A DNA stretch of 63,002 nt, the filler included, from Basidiobolus ranarum (lineage: Eukaryota), in assembly GCA_040143965.1 (NCBI GenBank). It is 47 parts of 47 records of this genome, joined end to end, with 100 filler letters (N's around TTAATTAATTAA, not from the genome) between each part and the next. Parts side by side here need not be neighbours in the genome. Positions count along the whole stretch, not along the records: positions 56,408 to 57,646 come from JASJQH010005866.1; 46 more parts are not named here. The stretch is one strand, 5' to 3'. The position numbers were made by a program, and so were the translations under genes. The first letter of the stretch is position 1, and each line of letters begins with the position of its first letter. Below the pieces are notes generated by a model, which saw nothing but the letters and a program-made list of their open reading frames with translations, did no database searches and had not been told where the DNA came from. Positions 1,349 to 61,663 of this stretch are shown here, in pieces.

Positions 1349-2595
1349 AGATCAATCTTTGTAAACACCTTGGCTGAAGCAAGCTGATCCAAGAGTTAGT
1401 TGATTAATGGCAAGGGGTACCAATTTTTGACTGTAATGCTATTTAGGCCATGATAATCAACACAGAGATGAAGAGATCCATCCTTTTTCTTAACAAACAA
1501 GATTGGAGAGCCTGCTGGGGACTTTGAATGTTGGATGAACTCTTTCTCTAAATTTTCTTCAATGTACTCCAGAATTTTGAGTTCTGGCTGGGTCAGCCAA
1601 TATATAGGCCCAAATGGTGGTTGTTTTCCTTCTTGTAGATCCATAGGGCCTTCATATTGGTGGCGAGCTGGGAGTATATCAGATTTCTTCTTGTCAAAGA
1701 CATCAGCAAAGGCTTGGTATTTGGGTGGGAGCTTATAAACCATAGATTTTGTTAGTTTCAACTCTTCAGCAATACTGTCAACAGATATTGGCTTTATAGA
1801 TGTTTTTAGGAGTTGGGCTGGTGATGAGTTGGATACTTTGCAGATTGGCAAATATGGACTAGGAGGTAGAGTTTGCTTGAACATCATAATCTTCTTCTCC
1901 CAATTGATTACTGGATTGTGCTGCATGAGCCATGAGATACCAAGGATAACTGGGTGGTGAGGTGAAGATATGATATTGAAGGCTATTTCTTCTTGATGAG
2001 CAGTGGACATGAGTGTTGTAAAGGTTGTTGCATGTGTTACAGCACCTGATGATAGTAGCCTTCCATCAACTACTTCTATAAGGATGGGACTAGATTTCTT
2101 GATTGTTGGGATAGAGTGGAATTTTACAAAGGCAGAGTCAATAAAACAGGAGGAAGCACCTGAATCAACAAGTGCAGTTGTTTTTATTGACTTGGAACTT
2201 GGTAGCAGGAGTGCAATGGGCAGCTTTAATGATTCATATGACTGCAGAGATTGCAATGTATGGTGAAGATACACTTTTAAAGATGTTTACCCAACTGCAT
2301 GCCCATTATTACAGCTGGGCACTGAAGTTTTCCAACAGTTGGGAAAAGTTCTCTTGTACTTGCATATTGTGATCTTATATCCAGGATTCTTTTTTGGACA
2401 GGTTTTTGCTACATGTCCAGGAGCTCCACAATAGATGCAGACATTCTCTTGTTGGTGTCAATATTTCTCCTGAGGGCTAAGCTTTCTGAAGCAAGTTCCA
2501 TCAATTTGCATTGGGTCATCAGCTTGCACTGTATTTTGTGTGTGATGGAAGGGGGGTGTGAAAGTAGATGATGAAGGAGAGAAGAAAGCAACCAT
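1349..2595 (-). mobile_element. Ty3/gypsy retrotransposon: gag zinc knuckle, protease, start of RT
   Basis: CIYCGAPGHVAKTC (CCHC knuckle), [13 protein letters not shown] (protease), [23 protein letters not shown] (RT). Confidence 0.93.
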
Positions 2596-2695: not shown

Positions 2696-3942
2696 CCACT
2701 TGAATATATACCAATCCAATACTTCCAGTCATTACATTTGAATAAATGCCTAGATGAGTGGACATTGATGGGAGTCCTGGTTAAATATGATGGTATCTTG
2801 ACATTTTCAAGCATTTTCCCAATCAATTCAAGCTTTGATCCTATCTCAAATGGCTCATTCAAATTAAATTTTCCACTGTATAGCTGAGTAAGTAGTATTG
2901 GAATGTTGTTGAATAGTAAGTGCATGGTGCCTAATGGGAAGCTCTAGCTCCAACTGATCCCCTTTAGCATTATAATCTTAGGCTTAGGGCTAATACCAAG
3001 TGAGATGTTAGACTGGCTATTTGGTGAACTGATATCAGTGATGATATTGAAATCTGACTGGGCTCTTGATAGTAAAATTATGAAGTTTAGTGTTGTATTT
3101 GGATAGTAGTGATGCGTATGCCTGTTAGAGTAAACTCAATTAATTCAACAAAATCTACAGCAAGATAGTGCATTGTGCCCACAAAATCTCCAAGTTTACT
3201 GATGGCTGGAGTATCACCAATACATACATTGATACTAGCTTTAATAAAAGATTCACCCATCTGAACCCTATAAGAAAACAATTCAAATTCCACAATCAAA
3301 GGCTCCATGAGGCATTCTATAAGCATCAGTGATTTAGGGCCAGATATGATAGATAGTACCAAAATATTATGACTTGTATACCATTCAGAAGGAGCAAGAT
3401 TTAAGTTGATTAAAATTATTGGCCAGCTAGCCTTTCTAATGGTGTATTTGTTTAGCAAGAAACCATCCAGGGCCAATGGAAATGCATGATCAAACATGTT
3501 CTTAAAGAAACCTTGACTTTTCAAATTCTGGTAGTGATATCCAACAATTATATTGGTAATACCATTAGCTTTATGAAGAGTACACTGGTATTGGTTCAAC
3601 AATCTATATTTGGGCAATTTCAGCAAGACTTTAAGACAGGGAATCAATGGTATGTATGGCAAATATGAACAATATTTCCCTGATTCTGTGATTGCCAATT
3701 GTTTGCAAGCAGTACATGACTTCAGGTTCTTCAGATCACCAGTGAAAGCCATGGGCAAAACCAAAGTCAATTTAGTGTACTTATTACTGTTGTTATCCAT
3801 CAGGCTTTGTGCAGCTGGTGGCTTTGTACAGTGACTGTGCTTGTGTTTATTTTTTCTATGGAGCCTCTGCCTTTCATAGCACAAGAATTTGTGACAATAA
3901 TAGCAGGGCTTCTTTAAACATTTGTGCTGTGGCATGAGAAGG
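2696..3942 (-). pseudogene. CACTA/CMC-type transposase, internally deleted and degenerate
   Basis: LDGF...SWPIILINLNLAPSEWY...IISGPK...IGDTPAISKLG and MHLLFNNIP motifs. Same family as 12117-12756, 26990-27830, 48540-49575 and 52389-53067. Confidence 0.82.
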
Positions 3943-6734: not shown

Positions 6735-7093
6735 TAAACACAACAAGATTCTTGTATTTTTTGATTCTCATTATGGCTGGAATACAAAGCCTAAAATATC
6801 TAAATAAAGGCATGCATATTAATTCAAATTCCTACAGCAGTAAACACAGTAATTGGCCATTTGTAAATTGTATTTTTGCAAAAATTGCCAGGTATTGAAA
6901 AACGCATGCCAAATTTGAGGATCAATATTTTAACATGCATGAATACCATAAAGATACCATCAAGAAACCACCGTCACACCATCAAAATCCCTGGCAGAAT
7001 GCAAGCCAGCGATATTGTGACGGTTCTCTGACGGTTTTGCTATTTCGGAGGGTGGATCCAATCCGGATCAAATCAATTTTATTTTTGTTAGGG
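6735..7093 (+). mobile_element. Right end of the CCCTAAC-terminated DNA transposon
   Basis: Ends ...GGATCAAATCAATTTTATTTTTGTTAGGG, directly abutting a copia integrase. Confidence 0.8.
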
Positions 7094-7980
7094 TGTGCTT
7101 TCTCTACTAAAGTCCTATTCATACTTTCTGCAACTCCATTTTGTTCTGCACTATATGGAATAGTAAATTGCTGCAGGTTTCCCTTTTCTTGACAAATGCT
7201 AGTCATGGCTTCATTGCAAAATTCAGTTCCATTATCACTGCATAGGTATTTGATTTTTCTTCCTGTTATGTTTGTGTCCATTGCTTCATATATCTTGAAG
7301 TATTGAAACACTTCTCCTTTGCTCAACAGAAGATATGATACTGTGAAGTGAGATTTATCATCAATAAAGATGAGTAAATATTGTCACTTACTTGGTGTCA
7401 GAGTTTGCATTGGGCCACATAAGTCTGTATGAATAAGATCCAATAAATCTTTGGCTTTGCTAGCTCCTTCTTTTGGAAATGGTTTTCTGGTGATTTTCCC
7501 TTGAATACAGCTTCCACATTTAGTAATATCTGAGGGCTTAAGATCCATTCCAGTACATAGGCTATTTTTATATAATAGTTTCACACTATTATAGTTTAGA
7601 TGACTCAAGCACTGATGCCAAGTAATCAAGTTTCCAAAAGTAATTGTTGCAAAGTTAGAAACAGTGTCAGTTATTGGTGCAATATCCAGGTGATATAGAT
7701 TCCCAATTCTTGTCCAGTTGCTACTATCAAGTCCTTTGATTGGTATATGATTGCTTTTCCTTGGCTGAATTAGACATCATAATGTTTCTTTTCAATTGCA
7801 CCAATTGAAAACAGATTTGTTGTAAATGATGGAATATATAAGACATCTTCCAATGTTACCATTACACTCTTGGTTTTACTTATTTGTAAGTCAAGTGTGA
7901 CCTTTCCCATTCCATATGCAACCAGTTTGTTTCTTCCAGCTACCATGATGTCCAGAGGTTCTATTTCCTTATAGTCATGC
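7094..7980 (-). mobile_element. Ty1/copia pol fragment (GAG-pre-integrase, integrase)
   Basis: WHQCLSHLN, DLIHTDLCGPM, SDNGTEF, PYSAEQNGVAE. Closely related to 17496-18739. Confidence 0.92.
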
Positions 7981-9812: not shown

Positions 9813-10671
9813 TGTTGAAATTAACATTGCTTAAGCACCTATATAGTCATATATAGCTTAGTACTTAGTTATCTTATAGTTCAATAAGACATTGTCCATT
9901 ATTCTCAATCAGAATTTACTTCAGATATTTTTACCAACTTAGAAGTTCTCAGGTATAAAGATTTTCAAACTTGATCTAGAAGCCCCAAACTTTGCACACA
10001 TGTTCCTGGGACCTTGCTTAACACATTCTACATGTCAGTTTGTCTACATCTTGACAAAACTATAAATGTCAACTTTCTACTCAATAAATCAACAAGCAAA
10101 AACCACCAATTCCTCTAATTCTCCAAATCACTTCCAACAGGCTCCCAAATACTTTAACAGGTCATGAGCCCCAAGCTTGCACTCTCTGTAATGTCTACTT
10201 CTCAGATTTATGGAACTCTCCTCTCTTCTCAAAAATTGGATGGAACCAATTATCAAGGTTAGTATATTAACATGAAAATGCTGCTGCAAGAAAAGGGACT
10301 TTGGGACACTGTTTTAAGAGAAGGAAACAATGCAAAACTATCTGAAAACAAAGTCTTACTCTTGTCTACAAAAGAACAAAGTGCCTATAACACAATTTGT
10401 CTTAATATTAAAGACAAATTGCTAATTCAATGTTCAAGAGCTAAAGCTGCCAGGAAGGTATGGAAATCCTTGGAAGACACCTACCAAACAAGTTCTGCTG
10501 CCAACAAGATGTTTCTAAGAAGACAGTTCTTTTACTTAAAGATGAAGCCAGGAGAACACATTAAATCACTAATTAATAGAGTCACTATTTTAGTGGATGA
10601 AATAGAATGCATTGGAGTACGTACTACTGATCAAGCTATCATAGTTACAGTCATGAATTGCCTGCTACAGG
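9813..10671 (+). mobile_element. Copia family A 5' end: LTR (9813-10159), PBS (10160-10171), gag
   Basis: TGTTGAAATT...TTTAACA, GGTCATGAGCCC, then KLDGTNYQG*..MKMLLQEKGLW and NKMFLRRQFF (UBN2-type gag). Confidence 0.92.
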
Positions 10672-10771: not shown

Positions 10772-11000
10772 CAGGTGACCTTCCATGGAAGGTCTTGGTG
10801 GAAATACACTATGTGTGGGATGACATGATTGGTTAGGTTTCATGGAATGTTCCAAAGAACATGACTTCCATATAAGATAATCTGGATGAACTAACACCAG
10901 ATTGCCAAGAAGGGATGGCACAGCAGATATGATGTCATAATCTAATAATAGAAGAGTTCTATTTGTAGTGGATCAGTATGCCAAGATCAGAATCATGACA
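10772..11000 (-). mobile_element. LTR family B (TGTCATGATTCTG start; probably gypsy)
   Basis: Near-identical to 31736-32170 and 50638-50948, with the same sharp TGTCA terminus in three different contexts. Confidence 0.75.
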
Positions 11001-11542
11001 ATTTCAAGTATATTCCAATTGAGGATAATGGATAATATCCTGGTGAAATATAAGATAACCAAGTAGTTAGCTATATATGACTATATAGGTGCTTAGGCAA
11101 TGCTATTTCAACCCTCTCTCTCAACTAAATAGTCATATAAACTAATACTAATAAAGGTCTAAATTTCTCAAATTTCTGTCTATCTACTGGTGTGGTTAAT
11201 ATATCAGTAATCATGTTTTCTGTAGAACAATAAGTTAAGTCAATAAATGTATTCTCTACAGTCTCTCTAATGCACTGAATCTTAATATCTATATGTTTGC
11301 TTCTATTAGGAAATGTGGGATTTTTAGCTAACTTTATACAACTTTGATTATAGTGAAATCTTGTGGTTGGTGAATTTTGAGAGTAACCTAAATCTGTTAA
11401 GAGTTTTCTTAACCATATTACTTCTTTTGTTGCTCCACAGGCAGCCATATATTCTGCTTTTGTTGTTAAAAGTGCTATGGTAGATTGTTTCTTTGAATTC
11501 CAAGAAATAGCTCCATTATAGCAAAGAAATAAGTAACCTATT
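11001..11542 (-). mobile_element. Copia family A RNase H, PPT and partial LTR
   Basis: EVIWLRKLL...RSKHIDIK...NMITDILT, then a purine tract and TTGAAATAGC. Confidence 0.9.
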
Positions 11543-11836
11543 CCCTGACAGAATTTTGAGGATTGTTATTGTTGGAAAACCATCACAGTTTTAATCCATT
11601 TGGGATTGACCATTTACTTACCATCATAAAATTGTCAAGTTAGATGTGATTTTAATCAATTTTTTAAGATTCACAAGTGACATTTCAAGATCTCACAAAA
11701 TAGTTACAAATGATTGGCTAAAATCTCACAGAACTAAGGATCAACATGTGTGTGAAAAACATAACTCAAATTTTACACAATTACCACTTGAATGCTAATT
11801 TGTCACCTTCAAAATCCCTAGTCTCTTTGACATATT
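11543..11836 (+). mobile_element. Left end of the CCCTAAC-terminated DNA transposon
   Basis: CCCTGACAGAATTTTGAGGATTG matches 29031 and the reverse complement at 55121. Confidence 0.8.
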
Positions 11837-11862
11837 TGTTGAAATTATATAGGGAGAAATAT

Positions 11863-11935
11863 TGGTCTGACCAGGAATTGAACCTGGGACCTCCTTCACT
11901 CTAGTAAGGTGCTCTAACCACTGAGCTACCAGTCC
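11863..11935 (-). tRNA. tRNA-like sequence inside LTR family T (LTR fragment 11837-12016)
   Basis: 73-nt cloverleaf with A box TAGCTCAGTGG and B box GGTTCAATTCC. Flanks are shared with three other copies. Confidence 0.7.
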
Positions 11936-12116
11936 TTGTATGCTATGCCTATATTGCTAGGGAACCTTAACCTAGTCTGTCAATGTATGGTACTTTGGCA
12001 TTTCAGCTTTACAAGCNNNNNNNNNNNNNNNNNNNNNNNNNNNNNNNNNNNNNNNNNNNNTTAATTAATTAANNNNNNNNNNNNNNNNNNNNNNNNNNNN
12101 NNNNNNNNNNNNNNNN

Positions 12117-13461: not shown

Positions 13462-14706
13462 TTGGCATAAAGGTACTACAAGTTCTGTCATTTTATTGGG
13501 CACTTCATTAGGCAGAATTTTAGTTAAAGGGTCCACAGGAATGCTATTTTCTTCATTGCATTGATATGAATCAGGAGAAAATTAATTTTTGTCAACATTG
13601 GAGGTCATTTTGGCTGATTATTTTTTGTTTTATTAAACAAAAATCCCTAGACTCGAATGACTTTGAACCTTTGGTATCATGGAGTCTGTAGGCCTTAGTT
13701 TGAGTACAATAACCCAAAAATATGCATTTCTTACTTTTTGGATTAAATTTAGACTGATTTTAGGTCACAATTTTGACATCAGCAATGCATCCAAAGAACT
13801 TCAAATGTTTGACATCAGGTTTAACTCCAAACCAAGCTTGATATGGTGTAGAGTTAGAAAGACTTCTAGTAAAGCTCCTATTCTTCAGATACACAGCTGT
13901 AGCTACAGATTCTGCACAAAAGTTATGAGATATATTTTGTGCATTTATCTTAGATCTAACCATTTCTATTATTATCCTGTTAGTTCTTTGGGCCACTCCA
14001 TTTTGTTGAGGTGAATAGGGGGCAGTAGTTTCTTGCTTAATTTTATGAACTTTGCAAAAGTGCTTAAGTAGTGTTGAATTATATTCTTCACCATTATCAG
14101 TGTGCATTTTCTGGATTTTAGTTCCAGTTTGAGTCTCCACAAGTGTTATAAAATCTCTAAAGATAAAGAGAGCTTCTTTTTTTCCGTCAAGTAGACCCAA
14201 ATGTTTGTTATACAATCATCAATATATATGATTCAATATCTTTTTCCACCTAAAGGTAAATTTTGCATAGATCCACACAAATCTGAATGAATTAGATCCA
14301 ATTTTTTGACAGATTCAAGTGGAACAGAGCTCTTGAATGGTTGCCTGACTTGTTTTCCATATACATAACCCTCACAAATTTCCACTTTGGTTGGGGGTTA
14401 ATATGAATTCCTGTAATCAGGCAATTTCTGATCATTTTGCTCAAATAATCAAATATCATATGGCCAAATCTCTTTTGCCATAATTGAATAGGTTCTTGAT
14501 TGGAATAACTCATCTTTACACATTGGTCTCTTGAACTATCTGTAAGTTTTTATAAGTTCTGATCCTTTTCTCCCAAAGCTAAATAATTCCCATTTTGATC
14601 AGTGATGGTGCATCCTGACTTGTCAAAAATTGAATTTTAGCCCTTCTGAGGTGGCCTTGCATACTGATATTAAACTCTTGGCAGTATCTGGAACATGCAG
14701 TACATC
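13462..14706 (-). mobile_element. Ty1/copia integrase region, degenerate
   Basis: LWQKRFGH, TDNGEEY, PYSPQQNGVAQRTNR, HLKFFGC. Confidence 0.9.
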
Positions 14707-17495: not shown

Positions 17496-18739
17496 TTGTA
17501 TGTGCTTTCTCTACTAAAGTCCTATTCATCCTTTCTGCAACTCCATTTTGTTCTGCACTATATGGAATAGGATATTGCTGCTGAATTCCCTTTTCTTGAC
17601 AAAAGCTAGTCATGGCTTCATTGCTAAATTCAGTGCCATTATCACTGCATAGGTATTTGATTTTTCTTTGTGTTATGGTTGTGACCATTGCTTCATATAT
17701 CTTGAAATAATGAAACACTTCTCCTTTGCTTGACAGAAGATATGAAACTGTGAAGTGAGATTTATATTCAATAAAGATGAGTAAATATTGTCACTTACTT
17801 GGTGTCAGAATTTGCATTGGGCTACATTAGTCTGTATGAATAAGATCCAATAAATCTTTGGCTTTGCTAGCTACTTCTTTTGGAAATTGTTTTCTGGTGA
17901 TTTTCCCTTGAATACAGCTTTCACATTTAGTAATATCTGAGTGCTTAAGATCTATTCCAGTACATAGGCTATTTTTATATAATAGTTTCACACTATTATA
18001 GTTTAGATGACCCAAGTGCTGATGCCAAGTCATCAAGTTTCCAGAAGTAATTGTTGCAAAGTTAGAGACAGTCTCAGTTATTGGTGCAATGTCCAGGTGA
18101 TAAAGATTCCCTATTCTTGTTCCAGTTGCTACTATCAAGTCCTTTGATTTGTATATGGTTGCTTTTCCTTGGCTGAATTGGACATTGTAATGTTTCTTTT
18201 CAATTGCTCCAATTGAAAACAGATTTGTTGTAGATGATGGAATATATAGGACATCTTCCAAGGTTACTGTTACACTTTTGGTGTAACTTATTTGTAAGTC
18301 AAGTGTGACCTTTCCCATTCCATATGTAACCAGTTTGTTTCTTCCAGCTACCATGATGTCCAGAGGTTCTATTTCCTTATAGTCATGCATTATGTTTCTA
18401 TTGTGATACGTATGATCCCTTGCACCAGAATATAGAATCCATACATCAGCAGTCTTTTCCTGATTTAGAGGTTGCCATAAGTACATAGTGTTCATTTCCT
18501 CTTTCAGTGGTGTTATATGCTTCCTTTTTCTTTGAAACCCATTTCTTCTTTGATCTGCAACAATGTGCTATTTGTCCCAGTTTTACACATTTGTAATATT
18601 TCACAGTGCTCCTTTCTGGTTGGAGATGGTGATAATACAATGCTTGGGTAGGTTTTGTTGCATCTGCAAGCTGCCTTTTGTCTTTCCTTTCAAATTCTTC
18701 TTGACATAGATGAGTGATCAGATAATGCTGAGTAAGCTT
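17496..18739 (-). mobile_element. Ty1/copia gag-protease-integrase, degenerate
   Basis: Decayed knuckle, WILYSGARDH (DSGA protease), WHQHLGHLN, SDNGTEF, QNGVAERMNRTL. Confidence 0.93.
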
Positions 18740-28242: not shown

Positions 28243-28361
28243 TCACACCATCAAAATCCCTGGCAGAATGCAAGCCAACAATATTGTGACGGTTCTCTGA
28301 CGGTTTTGCTATTTTGGAGGGTGGATCCGATCCGGATCAAATCGATTTTATTTCGTTAGGG
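28243..28361 (+). mobile_element. Right end of the CCCTAAC transposon (best-preserved copy, retains CpG)
   Basis: ...GGATCCGATCCGGATCAAATCGATTTTATTTCGTTAGGG. Confidence 0.82.
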
Positions 28362-29030
28362 AGCTTGGTGTATGACTTTGTAGACCCATTTGTAACCTAT
28401 TGGCTTTTTCCCTGATTGAAGAGGACTTAAGAACAACATTTTATTGTCCTGAAGTAAAGAAAACTCATCTGATATTGCTTTTTTCCCATAATTTTGATTC
28501 TAGACACTTCAGAGCTTGATCCACAGTCTGTGGCTTGTCACAGAATGCTGCATAAGCATATACATTATCATTGGAAGTGTTCCACCAGCTTCCTGGCTTT
28601 TTTCTCCTTCTGGATGAGCTTCTGGGCCCTGAATCATCCTTTAATATAATTGGTACTGAAATTTTGGTTGAATAGGGCTCAGATACAGCTGCAATTTTGT
28701 CAGACACCTCTTGAATAGTGCTGATTGTGTTTTCTGGATCAAGACCTGTGATTTGGGGTGAAAAATTTGCTTTTTCATCAAAAATCACATCTCTTCATTG
28801 ATTAACTTCTCATTTTTGGTATCAAACAGTCTGTAGGCATTGGATCCATCACAGTAACCAAGAAATATGCATTTCCTGATTTTGGGTTCCAATTTTGAGC
28901 GTTTTTGCACTGGAATTAGGCAACATGCTGTGCAACCAAAGATCCTGAGATGATCCACACTTGGTTTTGATCCATATAGGGCTTCAAATTGAGTAGAATT
29001 TTGTAGCAATCTTGTTGGGTATCTGTTTTT
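28362..29030 (-). mobile_element. Ty1/copia integrase C-terminus to RT start
   Basis: HLRIFGCTA, KCIFLGYC, IGYKWVYKV. Confidence 0.9.
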
Positions 29031-29485
29031 CCCTAACAGAAATTTGAGGATTGTTATCGTAGGAAAACCGTCACAATTTTAATTCATATGGGATTGACCA
29101 TTTACTTACTGTCAAAATATTGTCAAGTTAGATTTGATTTTAATCAATTTTTTCTGTTTCAGGAGTGAAATTTCAAGATTTTGCAAATTAGTTGCAAATG
29201 TTTGGCTAAAATCTCAGAGAACTATGGATCAACACATGTGCAAAAAATGTAACTCAAATTTAACATAATTACTAATTGAATGCTAATTTGTCACCTTCAA
29301 AATCCCTAGTCTCTTTGATATATTCTCCTGAGTATTTTTATAGAGTTCTTCATACCCAAGGTTAAGCTCATACGCAACACAAGTTTGTGTCAATATCTCC
29401 ATCAAAGCCCACCATTGTATCAACATTGCTGAATCAACATTCTTCCAGCTATCTGGCGGATACCCTGCAATATTGTGCCACTCTG
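29031..29485 (+). mobile_element. Left end of the CCCTAAC transposon, with a decayed minus-strand ORF
   Basis: CCCTAACAGAAATTTGAGG terminus. Homologous to 11543-11836, about 17085-17395 and about 58240-58985. Confidence 0.82.
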
Positions 29486-29585: not shown

Positions 29586-30800
29586 GTGTTGACTATGCAC
29601 TAGATGCAGTTGGTAAGGGCGCAGTTTTACTCATTTTAGACCAAAATTCAACTACATCATCTGCCAAATTGGATGATGTACTCTATATACCAAATATAGC
29701 CAAGAATCTACTCTCAGTATACCAAGCAACAACTCAAGGACTAAATTTCATGTTCAGCAAGACTGGATGCACTATCACAGATTAGAATAATACCAAATCA
29801 GCTACTGAGATCAAAACCCAGAACTTATATGAGCTAGGAATCAACTGATTGCATTCTGAGCAAGCCAACTTGGCCAAAACCAGTGAAATAAGTTGTCAAA
29901 TATGGCATAAAAGATTAGGCCACATTGGGGAAAAAAACGGACCCAAATGATTCAAAAGCAACTTGCTTCAGGCTTGGAAATTGAAAATATCACTAAGTTT
30001 GATCTATGTGAAGGTTGCATATATGGAGAACATCCACAGATAGCTGTTTTGAAACTCTGTAGGGATCAAATCCACTCAGAATTTTGCCTTGATTCATTCT
30101 GACCTATGTGTGCCTATGAAAAACCTCTCACCATGTCTCACAAGATGGGAAAGTGTACTTTATGAACTTTACTGATGACAAAACAACATATACTTGGGTA
30201 TTCTTGCTCAAATCAGAATCCAAAGCCTTAGCTACATTCAAGCACTACAAAGCAATTGTAGAGAAAGAAGCAGCACCAAAAATAAGGGTACTCAGGAGTG
30301 AAAATGGTGGTGAAATACTGCTTTGCAGACTTTGCCAGTTTTTGCTCTAAATCTGGAATTTAGCAACAAACTACTGTAACTTATACTCCACAGCAAAATG
30401 GAGTTGCAGAATATGCTAATAAGATCATATTGGAGATGGCAAGATCAATGTTACATGATCAAAAGTTACAATACTAATTTTGGGCTGAATCTGTTGCAAC
30501 TGCATTCTATATTTAAAAATAGATGCCCAACATGATAGTTACAAAATTCTACTGCATTTGAAGCCCTAAATGGATCAAAGCCAAGTGTGGATCATCTCAG
30601 GATCTTTGGTTGAACAGTATACTGCCAGATTTCAGCTCAAAAATGCTCTAAATTGGAACCTGAAAGCAGAAAATGCATATTTCAAGGCTACTGTGATGGA
30701 TCTAAGGCCTAGAGAGTGTTTATACCACCAATCAGAAGTTAATTAAGTGCAAAGATGTGATATTTGATGAAAAAGCAAATTTTCACATCCAATCACTACC
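29586..30800 (+). mobile_element. Ty1/copia pre-integrase and integrase, degenerate
   Basis: WHKRLGH, IHSDLC, RSENGGE, PQQNGVAE, HLRIFG. Confidence 0.9.
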
Positions 30801-40221: not shown

Positions 40222-40445
40222 NNNNNNNNNNNNNNNNNNNNNNNNNNNNNNNNNNNNNNNNNNNNTTAATTAATTAANNNNNNNNNNNNNNNNNNNNNNN
40301 NNNNNNNNNNNNNNNNNNNNNATATAAGACTGCATCTGAACACAAAATCTAAGGCCAATTAGTTGCATTTATAGCTGAAATGCAAAAGTACCATATGTTG
40401 ACAGACTAGGTTAAGGTTCCCTAGCAATATAGGCATAGCATACAA

Positions 40446-40518
40446 GGACTGGTAGCTCAGTGGTTAGATCACCTTGCTAGAGTGAAGGAGGTCCCAGGTT
40501 CAAATCCTAGCCAGACCA
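40446..40518 (+). tRNA. tRNA-like sequence inside LTR family T (LTR fragment 40322 to about 40542)
   Basis: 73 nt with A and B boxes; near-identical to 57545-57617. Confidence 0.7.
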
Positions 40519-40542
40519 ATATTTCTCCCTAAATAATTTCAA

Positions 40543-41415
40543 TCAAAATGTCACTTTATTGGATCTGTGTGAAGATGGCATATATGGAAAACATCACAGA
40601 CAGCCATTTTCAGGCTATGAAGAGATCATATGCACTCAGAATTTTGCCTTGATTCACTCTGACCTATGTGGGCCCATAAAAAATGTCTCACTAGGAGGGA
40701 AAAGATACTTTACGACCTTTGTTGATGAAAAAACAAGATATACTTGGGTATTCTTTCTCAAATCAAAATCACAATCATTAACTAAGTTCAAGCACTACAA
40801 TGCAATGGTAGAGAAAGAATCAGCACAAGAACAACGGTACAAAGGAGTGATAATGGTGGAAAATACTGCTCAAAAGACTTTGCGAATTTTTGTTCTAAAC
40901 ATGGAATTAAGCAACAAATACTGTACCTTATGTTCAACAGCAAAATGGAGTTTCACAACATGCTAATAAGTCCACAGTGGAGATGGCAAGATCAATGTTA
41001 AATGTTTGAAAGTTAGATTCCAATATTGGGTTGAATCTGTCTCCACTGAAGTCTATATCAAAAACAGATGCCCAACAAGATTGCTACAAATTTATACTTC
41101 ATTGGAAGCCCTATATGGATCAAAACTAAGTGTGGATCATCTCAGGATCTTTGGTTGCACAGCATATTGCCTAATTCCAGCTCAAAAATGCTCTAAATTG
41201 AAACCCAACAGCAGAAATGCATATTTCTTGGTTACTATAATGGATCCAAGGCCTGCAGACTTTTTGCTACCAAAAATTAGAAGTTAATCAAGTTCAGAGT
41301 TGTGATTTTTGATGAAAAAGCAAACATTTCACCTCAAATCACCATTCTCAATCCAGAAAACACAATCAGCACTATTCTGGCAGTGTCTGATGAATTTCCA
41401 GCTGCATCTGAGCCC
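40543..41415 (+). mobile_element. Ty1/copia integrase, degenerate
   Basis: LIHSDLCGPI, FTTFVDEKTRYTWVFFLK, HLRIFGCTAY. Confidence 0.92.
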
Positions 41416-41662
41416 TGTTATGCACCAACATACAAAGTTGTTTAACTTACGCCATATCTATACAACTTGCATGAATATCTGTTTAGTTTATCATTCTCAC
41501 TAACTAGTCATCTGACCTTATCCAGTGACTTTATCATGTGACCTATCACCTGACTAACTATCNNNNNNNNNNNNNNNNNNNNNNNNNNNNNNNNNNNNNN
41601 NNNNNNTTAATTAATTAANNNNNNNNNNNNNNNNNNNNNNNNNNNNNNNNNNNNNNNNNNNN

Positions 41663-47026: not shown

Positions 47027-48267
47027 TTGTCTTTCTCGGCTAATGCAAGGCGAGCACCAGATGTTCAGGTAGGAAAGATCTCCAATACTGATGCATCGAA
47101 AGTATAGTTGGCGAATTGCAATACTACATCTTGTGTGGTCAAATTCCATGTACCTTGTAAGCCAAATAACAGGTTAACTACTGCATAATGCTCGATCATC
47201 ACACCCTTTGGCGTTCCCGTGGAGCCAGAAGTATACAATACATAGCATAAATTCGACTCGGTATGTTCATTAACAACTGGATTATTGGTAGGGTTACATT
47301 CAATACTCTCCGCGTCTTCATCCATCAGTATCAATGAAACTCCATTAAATGTCTGCTTGTATTGTGAAATGGTAACCACCACCTGAGCATTTGTCTCCTC
47401 CATAATGAAGTCATTTCTTACTGATGGGTTGTTTGGATCCAGTGGAACATAAGCACCACCAGCTTTAAGAACAGCCAGGATAGCAACAATCATGAAGACT
47501 GACTTGTCGAGGCAAAGTGGCACCATTGTTTCTGGACCAACTCCGAGAATGATCAAATGGTGAGCCAATTGATTGGCACGTTGATTGAGTTCAGCGTAGG
47601 TGACATATTCTGATGTTTCAAATTGTACGGCTATGTTGTTGGGGTGAAGCGCAACTGCTTGTTCAAACATAGTGTGTAAGCATATTGGATTTGGTTGAGA
47701 ATGTTTGATGCTGCTCCAACTTTGAACCAATTGCTCTTCATTTGATGTAATGATACTCAAGTCATCGACCAAAACACTGGGATCCTGTACTACCCTTTTC
47801 ATAGCAGTCACAAAGTGATTTAGTAGCCAACCAGATTCATCTTGGTCGATTTCATTAGAGTTGTATCTAAGGGATATTTCATGACTTGTTCCATCGGAAG
47901 ATAATTCAATCACTACAGGAAACTCCATATTCATCGTAGATTGGTAGCTCTTTAACCCTACAGAACTGAATTTTCCGGTAGAGTCCGTGGATGCCAAATT
48001 CTGAATAGCTAAAAGAGTATCGAAAGGCATTTTGGATCCAACGGTACTGCAGGATTGTATAATATCTTTCATACCGATAGCTTGATGTTCATATTGTCCT
48101 AGTTGAGCTCTGTGAATGCCAATCATCGAATCTAGGATAGACGCGGTATCATTCAGTGTTACCCGTATCGGAAGTGTGTTTATACAAGGCCCACATATTT
48201 CGTGAATATGATTGAGAGGAATGCTTCTACCAGAATCAACAATGCCAAATAGCACATCTGAATTTCC
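47027..48267 (-). CDS. Multimodular NRPS fragment (end of C domain + A domain), intronless, with an in-frame TGA at 47065-47067
   Basis: FGIVDSGR, GPCINTLP, TYAELNQRANQLA (A1), LKAGGAYVPLD (A2), YTSGSTGTPKG (A3), FDASVLEIF (A4). The frame continues TSGARLALAEKD after the stop. Confidence 0.92.
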
Positions 48268-51048: not shown

Positions 51049-52288
51049 TAGCATTATTTTCATTTTAATTATCCAAACTTTATAATTGGTTCCATCCAAT
51101 TTTTCAGAAGAAGGAAAGTTCCATAAATTTGAGAAGTGGACATTACAGAGAGTGCAAGCTCAGGGCTCATAACCTGTTAAAGTGAAATCGGTGGTTTTCA
51201 CCTATTGATTTATTGAGTACAAAGTTGACATTTATAGTTTTGTCAAGATGTAAACAAACTAACATGTAGAATGTGTTAAGGAAGGTCCCAGGAACATGTG
51301 TGCAAAGTTTGGGGCTTCTAGCATAAGTTTGAAAAATCTATATATCTGAGAACTAAGTTGGTAAAAATATTCTAAGTAAATTCCAATTGAGAATAATTGA
51401 TAATATCTTGGTAAATTATAAGATAACTAATTACTAAGTTATATATGACTCTACAGGTGTTTAGGCAATGCTAAATTCAACAAATTGTTCCAATTCCAAT
51501 AGCATCCAATGTGCAGTCATCTCCTATGAGAACCTTTCCAATTTGGATTTCTTCATATTCCACAAACCAATGTTTTTCATTTGTGAAATGTTGGGAAGCT
51601 CTAGAATCAATGCACCATACCTGAGAATCCTGGTTGGTAGTCATAGATAGAGCAGAAATGAACCAGTGATCTTCTGTTGTAATTACATTTCCAGATTCCA
51701 TATGTTTTTCTTCTTTTGCAATTCTTTTAAAGCAATCTTTGCTTAAATGGCTAGTTCTATTACAGTAATCACAGAATGTGTTACTTTTCTTCTTAAAGTA
51801 CTTTTGATCTTTATAGGAAGGTTTCCTATAGCGTATTAAAGCAATTTCCTCATTCTTTTGGTAGAGTCCTGATTTGCATAAATCTTCATCTAGAAGTCTG
51901 CCAAATACATAATTTAAGGTCAAATTTTCAGTTTTTGATTCTAGAGCCATTACTAGGCTCTGAAACCTGTGTGGCAGGCTATTCAGGACTGTAACTATGA
52001 TATCTTGATCAGCGGTAGGTACTCCAATGCATTCCATTTCATTGACTAAAATAATGACTTTATTGATTAGTGATTCAATATCTTCTCCTGGCTTCATCTT
52101 TAAGTTGAAGAATTGTCTTCTTAGAAACATCTTGTTGGCAGTAGAACTTGTTTGGTAGGTGTCTTCCAAGACTTTTGATACCTTCTTGGCAGTTTTAGCT
52201 CTTGAACATTGAATTAGCAATTTGTCTTTGACATTAAGACAAATTGTGTTAAAGGCACTTTGTTCTTTTTTAACCTGGAGTAAAACTT
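51049..52288 (-). mobile_element. Copia family A 5' end (LTR 51175-51482, PBS 51163-51174) nested in the gag-protease of another family A copy
   Basis: GGTTATGAGCCC follows the LTR. The host ORF has a decayed knuckle CDYCNRTSHLSKDC and WCIDSRASQH. Confidence 0.9.
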
Positions 52289-56407: not shown

Positions 56408-57361
56408 AAGTTAGCTTGTCTACATCTTGACAAAACTATAAATGTCAACTGAATACTCAATAAATTAACAAGTGAAAACCACCAATTCCTCTAATTCTCC
56501 AAACCACTTCCAAGAGGCTCCCAAATACTTTAACAGGTTATGCGCCCCAAGCTTGCACTCTCTGTAGTGTCTACTTCTAAAATCTATGGAACTTTTCCCT
56601 CTTCTGAATAGTTGGATGGAACCAATTATCAAGTTTGGAAAATTTAAATGAAAATGCTGCTGCAAGAAAAAGGACTTTGGGACACTGTGGTTGGAGAAGA
56701 AAACAATGCAAAACTACCTGAAACCAAAGTTTCACTCTAGGTTAATAAAGAACAAAGTTTGTCTAACTTAATTTATCTCAATGTTAAAGACAAATTGATA
56801 ATTCAACATTCAGGTGCTAAAACTACCAAGAAGGCATGAAAAGCCTTGGAAGACCCCTAACAAACAAGTTCTGCTGCCAACAAGATGTTTCTAAGAAGAC
56901 AAATCTTTAACTTAATGATGAAGCCAGGAGAAGACATTAAATCACTAATTAATAGAGTCACTATTTTAGTAGATGAAATGGAATGCATTGAAGTACCTAC
57001 TACTGATCAAGATATCATAGTTACAGTCCTGAATAGCCTGCCACACAAGTTTCAGAGCCTAGTATTGGCCCTAGAATCAAGAACTGAAAGTTTGACCTTA
57101 AATAATATATTTGGCAGACTTCCACATGAAGATTTACACAAATTAGGATCCCACTAAAAGAATGAAGCAAATGCTTTAATAGGCTATGGGAAACCTTCCT
57201 ATAAAGGTCAAAGCACTTTAAAAAGAAAAGAAACACATTCTGTGATTACTGTAAAAGAACTGACCATTTAAGCAAAGATTGCTTTAAAAGAATTGCAAAA
57301 GAAGAAAAATATACTGAATCTGGAAATGTGGTTGCAACATAAGAGCACTTGTGCATATCTG
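56408..57361 (+). mobile_element. Copia family A: LTR end (56535), PBS, gag
   Basis: TTTAACA GGTTATGCGCCC; gag colinear with 10191-10671 and 51660-52288. Confidence 0.9.
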
Positions 57362-57643
57362 TGTTGAGAGGCTGGTGACTTGTGGTACAAGCAGTAATTC
57401 CAAAAGAGGAAAATATGGCGTATGGTGACTGCATCTGAACACAAAGTCTAAGGCCAATCAGTTGCTTGTATAGCTGAAATGCCATAGTACCATACATTGA
57501 CAGACTAGGTTAAGGTTCCCTAGCAATATAGGCAAAGCATACAAGGACTGGTAGCTCAGTGGTTAGAGCACCTTGCTAGAGTGAAGGAGGTCCCAGGTTC
57601 AAATCCTGGCCAGACCAATATTTCTCCCTAAATAATTTCAACA
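57362..57643. mobile_element. Complete LTR of family T (282 bp, TGTTGA...TCAACA) containing a tRNA-like gene
   Basis: 6-bp inverted termini; interrupts a copia ORF. Homologous partial copies at 11837, 40322 and 60212. Confidence 0.72.
57545..57617 (+). tRNA. tRNA-like cloverleaf (nominal anticodon AGA, short variable loop), probably a pseudo-tRNA or Pol III promoter
   Basis: GGACTGG TA GCTC AGTGGTTA GAGC A CCTTG CTAGAGT GAAGG AGGTC CCAGG TTCAAAT CCTGG CCAGACC A. D and T arms pair fully; mismatches at A3.A70 and G31.G39. Confidence 0.75.
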
Positions 57644-58239
57644 TTTNNNNNNNNNNNNNNNNNNNNNNNNNNNNNNNNNNNNNNNNNNNNTTAATTAATT
57701 AANNNNNNNNNNNNNNNNNNNNNNNNNNNNNNNNNNNNNNNNNNNNCACAGAGATGCAACAATAATAGATACTAACATGTTCAAAGTTTCAAGGCCACAT
57801 CAGCGATGTTTGTGATCTTAATGGCATTTGATTCAACCCCCCACTCATGGCAATTATACTCAGCCACCAATTCTTAGCATTTAATCTAAGCTATTTCTTT
57901 ATATAAGCAACCCTTCCTCTTAGTGAAAAAAAAGCTTCTAGCCTTAGCACATTCCAAAACTGCACCATATGTGTTATCCTCTCTTAAACTAGTTATTCTA
58001 TCACATATCATAGTACAATAAAAAAGATTCCTGATGCAACTCAACTAGGCTCAACTATTGCAGATTGCAGTTCAGATTCCTTCATAGTTATCTTCACTTT
58101 TAGAGCCACAGAATATACCTCACTCTTAATCAAAGTCTGTGCCAATCTTATAGATCTATAGCTTTTTCTTCAGACTTCAGGTTAGAGAAACCACCAGAGT
58201 TTTATCTCTCATTGTAGTATTGAAGATACTTGATAGTTC

Positions 58240-59085: not shown

Positions 59086-59221
59086 TATAAAATATATGTT
59101 CCGATTTTCAGCTAAGTGATATTTGACTAAATAATGTTGACTAACTAATATGTGATATATGAAATAGTTAGGTGTATAAAGATAGGGATAACATATATGA
59201 TAAAGACAATAAACTTCAACA
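59086..59221 (-). mobile_element. Copia LTR family C fragment
   Basis: Reverse complement of 33402-33512; ends CTTCAACA. Confidence 0.75.
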
Positions 59222-60155
59222 GGTACTCTATGGTGCAAAATTGTGCTGCATAAGTTTGGGAATAACCTATCCAATATGCTATATACAGCACAGTCTGGCA
59301 CTTTGACAAGGAACCAGTCAGTAGAATGACTATATACCAAGATGTATATGACTATATAGGTGTATGGACTATGTTAACTCCAGCAGTATCAGCTGGTGGA
59401 TTGATCCAAAAATAAGCAACTGGTATGCCAAACATGATATATGAATATCTTGGTGCTTCTTTTTGTTTTGAAATCTGCAACCCTGAATATATATTCTATA
59501 TTTTAAATAATCCTCTACTAGTTAATGTTGAAAATGACATAGCTTAAGCATCTGTATAGTTGTATAACTAGCTACCTTGATTTTACTATGTTATCATTAG
59601 ATATCTTCATAATTGAGTTACTGAAAATATTTTTACATTATTGGAAGATCTCAGATTATGTGATTTTCATGGACATATCTGAAAGTCCCCAAGCTTTGTA
59701 CACACATTCCTTGCATCTTCCCAAACATATTCTACACATTGATTTAGTCATTTCTTGACAAATATACAATTGTCAAGTTAAACCTAATAAATCAATTAGT
59801 GGCAAACTATCATTGATTCTAGTTCTCCAAATCACTCTCTGTTGTGTACCAACATACAAAGTTATATGTTATTACATCATCTCTATACAACTTGCATCAA
59901 TATTGATTTAGTTTATCACCATTGCTAACTAGTCATCCAACATTTTCCGGTTACTCTTTCATGTGACTTATCACATGACTAACTAATTATTCTCTGATCC
60001 TTTCTATAATATCATATGGCCAGTCACATGATTATTGTTCAATCAATATTAATCTCTAAGTCATCTTCACAGACACATGTTAATATGAGTCACAAAAATC
60101 ATAACCAATGATCCTTCACAGCCAAGACTTCAGCTGATGCATGACTAACTTATCC

Positions 60156-60176
60156 ATCTATCTATCTATCTATCTA
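60156..60176. repeat. (ATCT)n microsatellite, about 5 units
   Basis: atctatctatctatctatcta. Confidence 0.8.
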
Positions 60177-60238
60177 ATCCCATTCTCCTTTTTCAGAGTT
60201 AGTCATCTATTTATTGAAATTATTTTAGGGATAAATGT

Positions 60239-60311
60239 TGGTCTGGCCAGGATTTGAACCTGAGGCCTCCTTCACTCTAGCAAGGTGCTCTAACCACTGA
60301 GCTACCAGTCC
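60239..60311 (-). tRNA. tRNA-like sequence inside LTR family T (LTR fragment 60212-60324)
   Basis: 73 nt, reverse-complement match to 57545-57617. Confidence 0.68.
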
Positions 60312-60746
60312 TAGTATGGTACGCNNNNNNNNNNNNNNNNNNNNNNNNNNNNNNNNNNNNNNNNNNNNTTAATTAATTAANNNNNNNNNNNNNNNNNNNN
60401 NNNNNNNNNNNNNNNNNNNNNNNNGCATTTGGCAATATCTCCAAATGGTTATGAAAATGATTTTCATGGGATACGCGTAGAGTATATTGACTGATACTAA
60501 CTTGACTGATACTAACTAACTTGACTGATACTAACCGGGAAATCATATTTACAGTCGACATTGATCAAACCCGTTTAAACTCAATTCCATGTACGGAACT
60601 TTGATATCCAGTATGTTGGTGCAAATCTAGCCACGCAATTGCCCTACTATACCCGAGAGATGTCAAGAGGATCTTGGTTACAACTATATAAACAAACCTT
60701 CTTTCTTCAATTACAATCAAGAATAGACTAACTCTACATATTAATA

Positions 60747-61663
60747 ATGTCTGGAGAATCCGAAAACCTGAACAATGCTACGGTTCAGTTTGACTCCGAA
60801 CAGCCTGCTACAGATAATGCCTCGAAGAATTTGAGTCCTACCAGCGCAATATCGAAAATCGATACACATCAATCTACAGCTGCAATCTCAATCATGAGTG
60901 ATTATGGCTGGAGTGATGAAGGTGGAGCAGCTGAGGAAGAAGGTGAGGAAGAAGGCGGAATGAGTAATGCTGCGGTTCCCGAAGAGCTCTTACAAACAGA
61001 CCCTAGACAGGGATTAACATCTTCTGAGGTTGAAACCCGTAGGAAGAAGTATGGTCTTAATCAACTTTCTATGGAGAGTGAGAGCAAGATCCTCAAGTTC
61101 TTCCTATTCTTCTGCGGCCCCATTCAGTACGTGATGTGGGTTGCAGTTTGTCTTGCTGGTGCTCTTCAGGATTGGGTAGATTTTGGTGTCATCATTGGTC
61201 TTCTCGCACTGAATGCTTTCGTTGGTTTCTTGCAAGAGTATCAAGCAGGAAATATTATTGATCAGTTGAAGAAAACATTGGCACTATCGGCTATAGCTGT
61301 AAGAGACGGAAAGGAGGTCCAAGTGGAGGCTAACTCCCTTGTCCCTGGTGATATTATTCTTGTTGAAGATGGTTGTGTTGTTCCAGCTGATTGTCGTATT
61401 CTTGGAGAAGACTCACGTCTACAAGTTGATCAGGCCGCATTGACTGGAGAGTCATTGGCCGCATCTAAGGGACCTGGTGATGATTTGTTCAGTAGTTCGG
61501 CCATTAAGCGTGGTAGTTGTTATGCTGTTGTTACTGCTACTGGTGAAAAAACCTTCGTTGGTCGTGCCGCTGCTCTTGCTGGTAAATCGAATGGTGTTGG
61601 TCACTTTACCGAGGTTATCAACAATATTGGTACTGTTCTTCTCGTGCTCGTCATCTTGTGGTT
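60747..61663 (+). CDS. PMA1: Plasma-membrane H+-ATPase (P-type IIIA), N-terminal part
   Basis: [82 protein letters not shown] at 60685. Confidence 0.95.

What the first reader, a model, noticed from the sequence alone, without database searches (positions are those of the whole stretch)
57362..57643. LTR family carrying a complete tRNA-like Pol III unit (4 copies)
Seen: a 282-bp unit bounded by TGTTGA...TCAACA contains a 73-nt cloverleaf with an A box (TAGCTCAGTGG) and a B box (GGTTCAAATCC). The same cassette with the same flanks occurs at 11863-11935 (-), 40446-40518 (+) and 60239-60311 (-). At least three copies are inserted inside other repeats. Read on the opposite strand, the unit starts TGTTGAAATTA, exactly like the 5' ends of copia LTR families A and D here. 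Inference: the tRNA lies antisense near the U3 end and points out of the element. Known precedent: plant Cassandra TRIMs carry 5S rRNA in their LTRs and use it as a Pol III promoter. A fungal copia-type LTR that captured a tRNA gene could gain Pol III transcription, a TFIIIC-type chromatin barrier against silencing, or its own primer. I do not know of a described fungal example.
Basis: partly seen in the sequence, partly recalled or inferred. Interest (0 to 1): 0.78.

Follow-up and report, generated by a model that had tools for sequence, protein, structure and literature searches.

The report
tRNA-bearing LTR, Helenus-type, Basidiobolus-like fungus
This is a short retrotransposon terminal repeat that carries a decayed tRNA copy, a kind of element already described in other fungi as Helenus, here apparently found in a fungal lineage where it had not been reported.

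Summary
A 282-bp unit (57362-57643, TGTTGA...TCAACA) contains a 73-nt tRNA-like cloverleaf with A and B boxes. Three further copies exist (Rfam tRNA 43-59 bits, threshold 29).

Only the 57362 copy is complete. The other three are cut by contig ends.

Both unit edges are precise insertion boundaries: three paralogous "empty sites" lack the unit. Its tRNA-proximal end is identical over 11 nt to the PPT-adjacent starts of genuine copia LTRs in this window. So an LTR moved by copia machinery is the best reading.

The kind is already in print. Kojima 2024 (PMC10886601) named TRIMs with tRNA-like LTR sequences "Helenus", with 113 families in rust fungi, copia-mobilised, 5-bp TSDs and many solo LTRs.

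Two protein markers place this window nearest Basidiobolus, outside the published fungal range.

Not testable here:
- paired LTRs
- PBS and PPT
- TSD
- orientation of the tRNA relative to the LTR
- transcription

Verdict: new member of a known kind, modest interest.

The parts
57362..57643 (+). Only complete copy of the 282-bp LTR-like unit (TGTTGA...TCAACA). The strand is given as that of the tRNA-like part.
   Evidence: Homology to a copia gag paralogue stops at 57361. The right edge coincides with the edge defined in two other copies.
57545..57617 (+). 73-nt tRNA-like module. A box at 57552-57562, B box at 57596-57606. Stem mismatches A3/A70 and G31/G39. Short 5-nt variable region despite the 'Ser' AGA anticodon.
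   Evidence: ARAGORN; Rfam tRNA 58.6 bits, alignment shown; fold.
40322..40544 (+). Partial copy, from about unit position 60 to 282, cut at the contig start. tRNA-like part at 40446-40518. Ends TCAATC.
   Evidence: Right edge precise against empty-site paralogue 29983|29984.
11837..12016 (-). Partial copy, unit positions 103-282, cut at the contig end. tRNA-like part at 11863-11935.
   Evidence: Right edge precise against empty-site paralogue 29325|29324.
60212..60324 (-). Partial copy, from about unit position 171 to 282, cut at the contig end. tRNA-like part at 60239-60311. Ends TCAATA.
56648..57361 (+). Degenerate copia gag (5 in-frame stops) that is interrupted by the unit. It is the host of the insertion, not part of the element.
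   Evidence: translation. (87.9% over 636 nt to contig 51049-52288, whose ORF has Retrotran_gag_2 at E 3.3e-31). (junction).
51600..51720 (-). Paralogous 'empty site' for the 57362 insertion. Copia gag continues uninterrupted across the point 51653|51652.
29300..29350 (-). Paralogous 'empty site' for the 11837 copy. The repeat continues across 29325|29324 without the unit.
29960..30010 (+). Paralogous 'empty site' for the 40544 copy. The repeat continues across 29983|29984 without the unit.
9813..10139 (+). Reference copia LTR ('family A', 327 bp). Starts TGTTGAAATTA and ends CTTCCAACA, followed by a PBS region and gag. Used to judge the unit's termini.

Best explanation
The unit is a long terminal repeat, present as solo LTRs and/or end LTRs, of a small LTR retrotransposon moved in trans by the copia-type elements that fill this genome. 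Its LTR has incorporated a tRNA-derived module. That is the architecture published as Helenus (TRIMp3).

The tRNA-like part is not a working tRNA. It has an AGA 'Ser' anticodon but no long variable arm, and two stem mismatches.

Most likely mechanism (inferred, not shown):
- The intact A and B boxes recruit TFIIIC/TFIIIB, so RNA polymerase III starts at the tRNA-like 5' end (57545) in the 5' LTR.
- Transcription reads through the last 26 nt of the LTR, which hold no T4 terminator, into a PBS and a short internal region.
- It re-enters the 3' LTR, which supplies the terminal redundancy needed for strand transfer.
- Copia Gag, RT and integrase supplied in trans then copy and insert it. The integrase recognises the TGTTGA...TCAACA ends.

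Shown here:
- discrete insertion boundaries
- copia-like termini
- the tRNA-derived module
- nesting in copia and other repeats

Inferred:
- paired-LTR structure
- sense orientation of the tRNA (about 60:40 in favour, given that it is an LTR)
- Pol III transcription

The host is a Basidiobolus-like fungus, outside the published fungal range of Helenus.
For: - Four copies, 94-96% identical over 105-215 nt, each with a tRNA-like part scoring 43-59 bits (threshold 29).
- The left edge is precise. Copia gag homology (87.9% over 636 nt) ends at 57361, and the paralogue continues with unrelated sequence.
- The right edge is precise, exactly 26 nt after the tRNA-like part, in 2 of 2 copies that have an empty-site paralogue.
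- The tRNA-proximal end, read on the other strand, is TGTTGAAATTA. This 11-mer has 16 matches at up to 1 mismatch in the window against 5.03 expected, and 0 of 100 shuffles reach 16.
- The same motif, or a variant sharing its first seven bases (TGTTGAA), heads other LTRs. Three of these sit directly after a polypurine tract: 9647, 44054 and 53440. One family is followed at its other end by a PBS region and gag.
- The far end...TCTCAACA, resembles copia family A's U5 ends...CTT[C/T]CAACA.
- The tRNA-like part differs from the reference copy at 7 of 219 positions. The rest of the unit differs at 23 of 293 (Fisher p = 0.035; p = 0.10 if the 13 contig-end bases of one copy are dropped).
- There is no T4+ run on the tRNA strand of the 282 bp, against two on the other strand.
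- The published class has the same anatomy, including copia mobilisation, solo LTRs and many copies predicted as 'tRNA-Ser-AGA'.
Against: - No copy shows two LTRs, a PBS, a PPT or a TSD. Contigs are only about 1.24 kb, and 3 of 4 copies are cut.
- In the one complete copy, the 3 nt after TCAACA (TTT) do not repeat the 5 nt before the unit (ATCTG). It is therefore not a clean solo LTR with a 5-bp TSD.
- Terminal similarity to copia family A is slightly better with the tRNA antisense: 11+7 = 18 of 22, against 7+8 = 15 of 22. An antisense tRNA could not drive the element's own RNA.
- The non-tRNA part of the unit has G slightly above C on the tRNA strand, whereas family A LTRs have C well above G on their sense strand.
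- The absence of T4 runs is weak evidence. My own estimate, not a tool result, is that only about 0.8 would be expected by chance.
- The cloverleaf is no more stable than shuffles (z = -0.40).
- One copy (40446) has decayed in the D stem and T stem (43.1 bits).
- No transcript data could be obtained.
- The Helenus consensus sequences are in supplements that were closed, so no sequence comparison with the published families was possible.
Confidence: 0.5

Rival explanations
1. The unit is a copia-type LTR, but the tRNA-like module lies antisense at the very start of U3 and points out of the element. It cannot make the element's genomic RNA. It would be a tolerated passenger, such as an old SINE or tRNA insertion. 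Alternatively it acts on chromatin or the flanks, as a TFIIIC barrier or through outward Pol III transcription.
For: - The end next to the tRNA-like part matches the U3 start of copia LTRs at 11 of 11 positions.
- The other end matches family A's U5 end at 7 of 11. The total is 18 of 22, against 15 of 22 for the opposite orientation.
- Position 7 is A in all six U3-start variants seen in the window, but G at the unit's other end.
- The G/C skew of the non-tRNA part fits this orientation weakly.
Against: - LTR ends are inverted repeats here (TGTTGAAA...TTTCAACA in one family A copy), so the tRNA-proximal end also fits a U5 end at 8-9 of 11 positions.
- U5 ends are known from one family only.
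- All published small-RNA-bearing TRIMs (Cassandra, Helenus, Ajax) are interpreted as using the module as their own promoter.
- The tRNA-like part is less diverged than the rest of the unit. A mere passenger would not predict that.
Confidence: 0.3
2. Not an LTR. The unit is a 282-bp non-autonomous element of another class: a MITE with 6-7-nt terminal inverted repeats, or a composite repeat that happens to contain a fragment of a tRNA-derived SINE.
For: - No paired LTRs, PBS, PPT or TSD were seen.
- The unit has short inverted ends, which a DNA transposon would also have.
- The right flank of the complete copy does not repeat the left flank.
Against: - The 11-nt identity with PPT-adjacent copia LTR starts, and the TG...CA ends, are specific to LTR elements here.
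- The right flanks begin AATAT, AAAAT, AATAG and TTT. This gives no sign of the TA or TTA/TAA duplications that I recall for Tc1/mariner and PIF-type MITEs (the class TSDs are recalled, not tested).
- It is not a classical SINE. The 183 nt upstream of the tRNA-like part belong to the unit, and there is no A-rich or simple-repeat tail.
Confidence: 0.12
3. Genuine tRNA genes sitting in a segmentally duplicated or LTR-targeted region. The tRNA would be the target of retrotransposon integration rather than part of the repeat.
For: The Rfam tRNA scores are in a respectable range (up to 58.6 bits). Some retrotransposons are known to integrate next to Pol III genes (recalled: Ty3, Dictyostelium TRE and DGLT-A).
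Against: - The tRNA-like part is flanked on both sides by sequence shared between copies. The shared block ends at precise edges inside three unrelated repeats.
- The AGA anticodon with a 5-nt variable region and A73 is not a serine tRNA design (established tRNA knowledge), and there are two stem mismatches.
Confidence: 0.03

Closest known systems
Helenus (TRIMp3), Kojima 2024, Biology 13:119, PMC10886601
   Same: - A tRNA-like sequence with conserved A and B boxes inside an LTR.
- Fungal members are linked to Copia elements.
- Many solo LTRs and multi-copy families.
- Predicted tRNAs whose anticodon and isotype disagree. 'tRNA-Ser-AGA' calls in Puccinia, Uromyces and Cronartium are mostly Helenus copies.
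- The 282-bp LTR length lies within the published range. The longest LTRs are 321-323 bp and one is 120 bp.
   Different: - The host appears to be Basidiobolus-like. The paper lists fungal Helenus only in Pucciniales and three Agaricomycetes.
- The defining TRIM features (two LTRs, PBS, PPT, total length under 1 kb, 5-bp TSD) could not be checked.
- The orientation of the tRNA-like part may be antisense.
- No sequence comparison with the published consensus sequences was possible because the supplements were closed.
Cassandra TRIMs of plants
   Same: A small Pol III gene module inside both LTRs of a non-autonomous LTR retrotransposon. As summarised in Kojima's introduction, transcription starts in the module of the 5' LTR and ends in that of the 3' LTR.
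   Different: Cassandra carries 5S rRNA with its terminator. Here the module is tRNA-like: Rfam finds tRNA and no 5S, and there is no T4 terminator. Cassandra is found in plants, not fungi.
tRNA-derived SINEs (SINE2)
   Same: A tRNA-derived head with A and B boxes. Kojima proposes a SINE2 insertion into an LTR as the origin of Helenus.
   Different: The tRNA-like part is not at the 5' end of the unit, because 183 nt upstream belong to it. There is no A-rich or LINE-derived tail. The ends are TG...CA, like LTRs.
Autonomous copia elements of the same window (for example 'family A', LTR 9813-10139)
   Same: The same first 11 nt (TGTTGAAATTA) and a similar last 6-8 nt (TCAACA).
   Different: There is no other similarity between the unit and any copia LTR in the window (sensitive BLAST). 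The copia LTRs carry no tRNA-like part.

Membership tests
Helenus (TRIM with tRNA-derived sequence in its LTRs) | tRNA-derived sequence with conserved A box (TRGCY...YGG) and B box (GGTTC) inside the repeat unit | tested here: met
   ARAGORN finds it in 4 of 4 copies. Rfam tRNA scores 43.1-58.6 bits against 29. A box TAGCTCAGTGG and B box GGTTCAAATCC. One copy has GGTTCAATTCC.
Helenus (TRIM with tRNA-derived sequence in its LTRs) | The unit is an LTR: TG...CA ends, short inverted termini, discrete insertion | tested here: met
   The unit reads TGTTGA...TCAACA. Its edges are precise against 3 empty-site paralogues. The 11-nt terminus is shared with PPT-adjacent copia LTR starts.
Helenus (TRIM with tRNA-derived sequence in its LTRs) | Two LTRs in direct orientation around a short non-coding internal part (element under 1 kb in the screen, up to 1263 bp reported) | not testable with these tools
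   Contigs are 1239-1248 bp. Three of 4 copies are cut by contig ends, and the fourth ends 3 nt after the unit. No genome or reads were available.
Helenus (TRIM with tRNA-derived sequence in its LTRs) | PBS after the 5' LTR and PPT before the 3' LTR | not testable with these tools
   No internal portion is present among the 47 contigs. Unit positions 1-65 occur in one contig only.
Helenus (TRIM with tRNA-derived sequence in its LTRs) | 5-bp target site duplication (fungal members) | tested here: inconclusive
   In the only complete copy, the left flank ends ATCTG and the right flank has just TTT before the contig end. There is no match, but only 3 nt are visible.
Helenus (TRIM with tRNA-derived sequence in its LTRs) | Dependence on Copia elements (fungal members) | tested here: inconclusive
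   Shared termini and an abundance of copia genes in the window fit this. No PBS or internal similarity could be examined.
Cassandra | 5S rRNA-derived sequence in the LTR | tested here: not met
   Rfam at gathering threshold on the window, and at E up to 1 on 57300-57646, finds tRNA and no 5S rRNA.
tRNA-derived SINE (SINE2) | tRNA-related head at the 5' end of the element, with a 3' tail that is A-rich, a simple repeat or LINE-derived | tested here: not met
   183 nt upstream of the tRNA-like part lie inside the unit's left boundary. The unit ends AATTTCAACA and is followed by unrelated flanks.
Functional tRNA-Ser gene | Long variable arm (class II tRNA) and fully paired stems | tested here: not met
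   The cmscan alignment shows a 5-nt variable region and non-canonical pairs in the acceptor and anticodon stems. The class II rule is established tRNA knowledge, not a tool result. tRNAscan-SE isotype scoring was not available.

The most novel reading that the evidence does not exclude
A Helenus-like lineage arose independently, or arrived by horizontal transfer, in an early-diverging fungus (Basidiobolus-like, Zoopagomycota). In it the tRNA module sits antisense at the extreme U3 edge and fires outward. It would therefore serve not as the element's own promoter but as a TFIIIC/Pol III landing pad that insulates the insertion or transcribes the flank. That would be a new functional variant of small-RNA-bearing LTR elements.
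Probability: 0.25. Interest if true: 0.55.

Novelty: new member of a known kind. Interest (0 to 1): 0.33.

Why it matters
If confirmed on a full assembly, this would extend tRNA-bearing LTR elements (Helenus/TRIMp3) from Basidiomycota to a deeply separate fungal lineage. That would support Kojima's view that such chimeras arise repeatedly.

It also has a practical side. Copies like these inflate tRNA gene counts: all four 'tRNA-Ser' calls in this window are such copies. They should be masked in tRNA annotation of such genomes.

The open orientation question bears on whether the tRNA module is always the element's promoter.

Tried and rejected
- Whole-genome access: none held.
- Earlier findings of this scan: three look-ups, by place, sequence and words, returned nothing.
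- Pattern scans with a family-specific 46-mer (2 N) gave 0 matches in metagenome, prokaryote-genome and viral collections. A 28-mer (2 N) gave 0 matches in the metagenome collection. None of these collections is expected to hold this eukaryote.
- Protein Atlas on the ATPase fragment gave no usable taxonomy.
- The copia gag search found a single unnamed 570-aa relative at 64% identity, which is uninformative on the host.
- Retrozyme or other RNA families in the unit: only tRNA, plus a sub-threshold Plastid-ycf2 hit on the antisense of the same 73 nt (29.6 bits against 65.7), which I regard as an echo of the tRNA shape.
- The idea that the encoded ...ACCA end marks a retro-copied mature tRNA, or an extended PBS, was rejected. 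The final A is the discriminator (position 73), no post-transcriptional CCA follows, and the unit edge lies 26 nt beyond.
- 'Own primer': the longest complementarity to the local copia PBS region is 6 nt.
- The similarity of the three right flanks (AATATGTCA, AAAATGTCA, AATAGATGA) at first suggested a shared internal region. It was rejected for two of them, because the empty-site paralogues carry the same bases without the unit.
- Tests of orientation were all weak and point in different directions: terminal matches, G/C skew, T-runs, and CCAAT/TATA-like motifs read by eye.
- Literature searches: Cassandra/TRIM/tRNA, Helenus/TRIMp3 and Basidiobolus with transposable elements. One search was a listing only. 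It showed no paper describing such an element in Basidiobolus, but it was dominated by unrelated papers.

Full report
**What the window is.**
The 63,002 bases are not one stretch of chromosome. A scan for N runs finds 46 identical 100-nt linkers (44 N, TTAATTAATTAA, 44 N). These cut the window into 47 pieces of 1248 down to 1239 bp, sorted by falling length. This is a concatenation of small leftover contigs, so nothing can be inferred from what lies across a linker. The four copies lie in contigs 10772-12016, 40322-41562, 56408-57646 and 59086-60324.

**The observation.**
- ARAGORN reports four tRNA-like genes and no others, at the four stated places. Each is 73 nt and called Ser (aga).
- Rfam's tRNA model gives 58.6, 55.3, 54.3 and 43.1 bits (gathering score 29). 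These are the only Rfam hits in the window.
- BLAST of contig 56408-57646 against all 47 contigs finds the unit in three others: 215 nt at 94.9%, 180 nt at 96.1%, and 105 nt at 94.3%.
- A more sensitive BLAST of the 282-bp unit finds no further copies and no relatives lacking the tRNA-like part.
- Three of the four copies are cut upstream of the tRNA-like part by their contig ends. Only the 57362 copy shows the left edge, and its contig stops 3 nt (TTT) after TCAACA.
- As a fold, the cloverleaf is not exceptional: -23 kcal/mol, z = -0.40, and 68 of 200 shuffles do as well. The case for tRNA descent rests on the covariance-model score and the boxes.

**It is a discrete inserted element.**
- Left of 57362, the contig carries a copia gag. 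It is 87.9% identical over 636 nt to contig 51049-52288, whose ORF matches Retrotran_gag_2 at E 3.3e-31. The local copy has 5 in-frame stops.
- That homology ends at 57361. The paralogue continues ...TTTCTG|CTCTATCTATG, where the window has ...ATCTG|TGTTGAGAGG.
- On the other side, the unit ends exactly 26 nt after the tRNA-like part in two copies for which a paralogous repeat without the unit exists:
  - ...TTTCAACA|AATATGTCAAAGAGAC against CTCAGGAG|AATATATCAAAGAGAC (empty site 29325|29324)
  - ...TTTCAATC|AAAATGTCAC against GGAAATTG|AAAATATCAC (empty site 29983|29984)
- So 3 of 4 copies are demonstrably nested in other repeats. One host is a copia gag. Another carries a weak integrase-core match, E 0.0017 and 19 bits, below Pfam's cut-off.
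- For the fourth copy (60212), the immediate flank has no paralogue in the window.

**Why an LTR.**
- The ends are TG...CA with a 6-7-nt inverted repeat.
- Read on the opposite strand, the tRNA-proximal end is TGTTGAAATTA. This 11-mer has 16 matches (up to 1 mismatch) in the window against 5.03 expected, and 0 of 100 shuffles reach 16. Eight matches are exact, two of them in the unit's copies.
- Elsewhere the motif heads other repeat families.
- A systematic list of internal BLAST break-points ending in ...AACA shows six variants of such starts: TGTTGAAATTA, ...ATTC, ...GATC, ...GTTT, ...ATCA, ...AATG.
- Three of these starts directly follow polypurine tracts: GAGGGAGAG at 9647, GGAGAGATC at 44054, and GAGTGGGAG at 53440.
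- One family ('A', 9813-10139) ends ...CTTCCAACA and is followed by a PBS region and gag.
- The unit therefore carries the recognition ends of the local copia elements but shares nothing else with their LTRs.

**Why not the alternatives.**
- A classical tRNA-SINE is excluded. The 183 nt upstream of the tRNA-like part lie inside the unit, and there is no A-rich tail.
- A genuine serine tRNA is excluded. The variable region has 5 nt, and the acceptor and anticodon stems each hold a mismatch (class II tRNA rule from general knowledge).

**What could not be shown.**
- No copy shows a second LTR, a PBS, a PPT or a target duplication.
- In the complete copy, the three bases after the unit (TTT) do not repeat the five before it (ATCTG). 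It is therefore either one LTR of a full element or a solo LTR with a decayed or mis-assembled flank.
- Pattern scans of the metagenome, prokaryote-genome and viral collections found nothing.

**Orientation.**
In favour of antisense:
The sense arrangement scores 7+8 = 15 of 22.
- The G/C skew of the non-tRNA part agrees weakly with antisense.

In favour of sense:
- Because LTR ends here are inverted repeats (one family A copy ends ...CTTTCAACA), the tRNA-proximal end also fits a U5 end well. U5 ends are known from a single family.
- The tRNA strand of the unit has no T4+ run, whereas the other strand has two.
- The tRNA-like part is less diverged than the rest: 7 of 219 against 23 of 293 differences from the reference copy (Fisher p = 0.035). 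Dropping the 13 bases next to one contig end gives p = 0.10. Six misaligned bases at the start of contig 40322 were also dropped.
- All published elements of this kind are read as using the module as their own promoter.

I put sense against antisense at about 60:40, given an LTR. Only a PBS or PPT will settle it.

**Comparison with what is known.**
A literature search led to Kojima 2024 (PMC10886601). I read the abstract, methods, results, discussion, figure legends and tables. The supplements were closed.
- It reports 113 families in Pucciniales, plus Agaricus, Coprinopsis and Amylostereum.
- Fungal members generate 5-bp TSDs and share PBS types with Copia elements. Some families survive only as fragments and solo LTRs.
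- Most predicted 'tRNA-Ser-AGA', 'Thr-AGT' and similar genes in rust genomes are Helenus copies.
- No complementarity exists between the tRNA-like part and the PBS.
- The paper itself states that promoter function is inferred from conservation, not tested.
- Two later papers merely cite it (passages only). A search for Helenus/TRIMp3 from 2023 onward lists no further primary description.

The kind is known.

**Host.**
- A plasma-membrane H+-ATPase fragment (60732-61661) has seven Basidiobolus meristosporus or B. ranarum proteins as its best hits, at 70-82% identity. The next best hit is at 65%, in yeasts.
- An NRPS fragment (47065-48267, minus strand) has Basidiobolus ranarum proteins at 64, 57, 53 and 51% identity as its top four hits. 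Three further B. ranarum proteins appear lower in the list, and bacterial proteins score about 35%.
- The window therefore comes from a Basidiobolus-like fungus, not identical to the sequenced ones at these loci.
- That lies outside the fungal range given for Helenus.
- My search for Basidiobolus with transposable-element terms (listing only) showed no description of such an element there. This is weak evidence of absence.

**Verdict.**
- The LTR reading is well supported, though the paired-LTR anatomy is unproven.
- The Cassandra-like idea is essentially the published Helenus/TRIMp3 concept.
- What may be new is the host lineage and, if the termini are telling the truth, an antisense placement.
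- Interest is modest.

Noticed in passing
window 1-63002 (linkers, for example 57647-57746): The window is 47 contigs of 1239-1248 bp in descending length order. They are joined by 46 identical 100-nt linkers (N44-TTAATTAATTAA-N44). It is an artificial concatenation of leftover contigs, so neighbourhood across linkers means nothing.
   Followed up: yes
47065-48267 (-): NRPS fragment (Condensation plus AMP-binding domains). Best relatives are Basidiobolus ranarum proteins at 64-50% identity, followed by bacterial NRPSs at about 35%.
   Followed up: partly
60732-61661 (+): N-terminal fragment of a plasma-membrane H+-ATPase, 70-82% identical to seven Basidiobolus proteins. Used as a host marker.
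   Followed up: partly
10140-10175 (+), also 56518-56555 (+): After the copia family A LTR comes GGCTCCCAAATAC..., and 21 nt later GGTCATGAGCCCC. By eye these look like complements of tRNA anticodon loops (Pro-like and initiator-Met-like, recalled and not tested). That would fit the half-tRNA priming Kojima describes for fungal Copia and Helenus.
   Followed up: no
29029-29030 (contig 28243-29485): This contig is itself a junction of two different repeat families. Each of them hosts one of the tRNA-bearing unit insertions elsewhere, which indicates dense nesting of repeats.
   Followed up: partly
about 60150-60176 (-): A short (GATA)n microsatellite lies about 35 nt beyond the edge of the 60212 copy.
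   Followed up: no
57545-57618 (-): A sub-threshold Rfam hit to Plastid-ycf2 5'UTR RNA (29.6 bits against 65.7) on the antisense of the tRNA-like part. Probably an echo of the tRNA shape.
   Followed up: no
3087-3941 (-), 1396-2286 (-), 17827-18567 (-), 6982-7776 (-), 13760-14215 (-): Other mobile-element genes among the contigs: a Transposase_21 (CACTA-type) fragment scoring just below Pfam's cut-off, a retroviral-type aspartyl protease, and several copia Pol/pre-integrase/integrase fragments.
   Followed up: no
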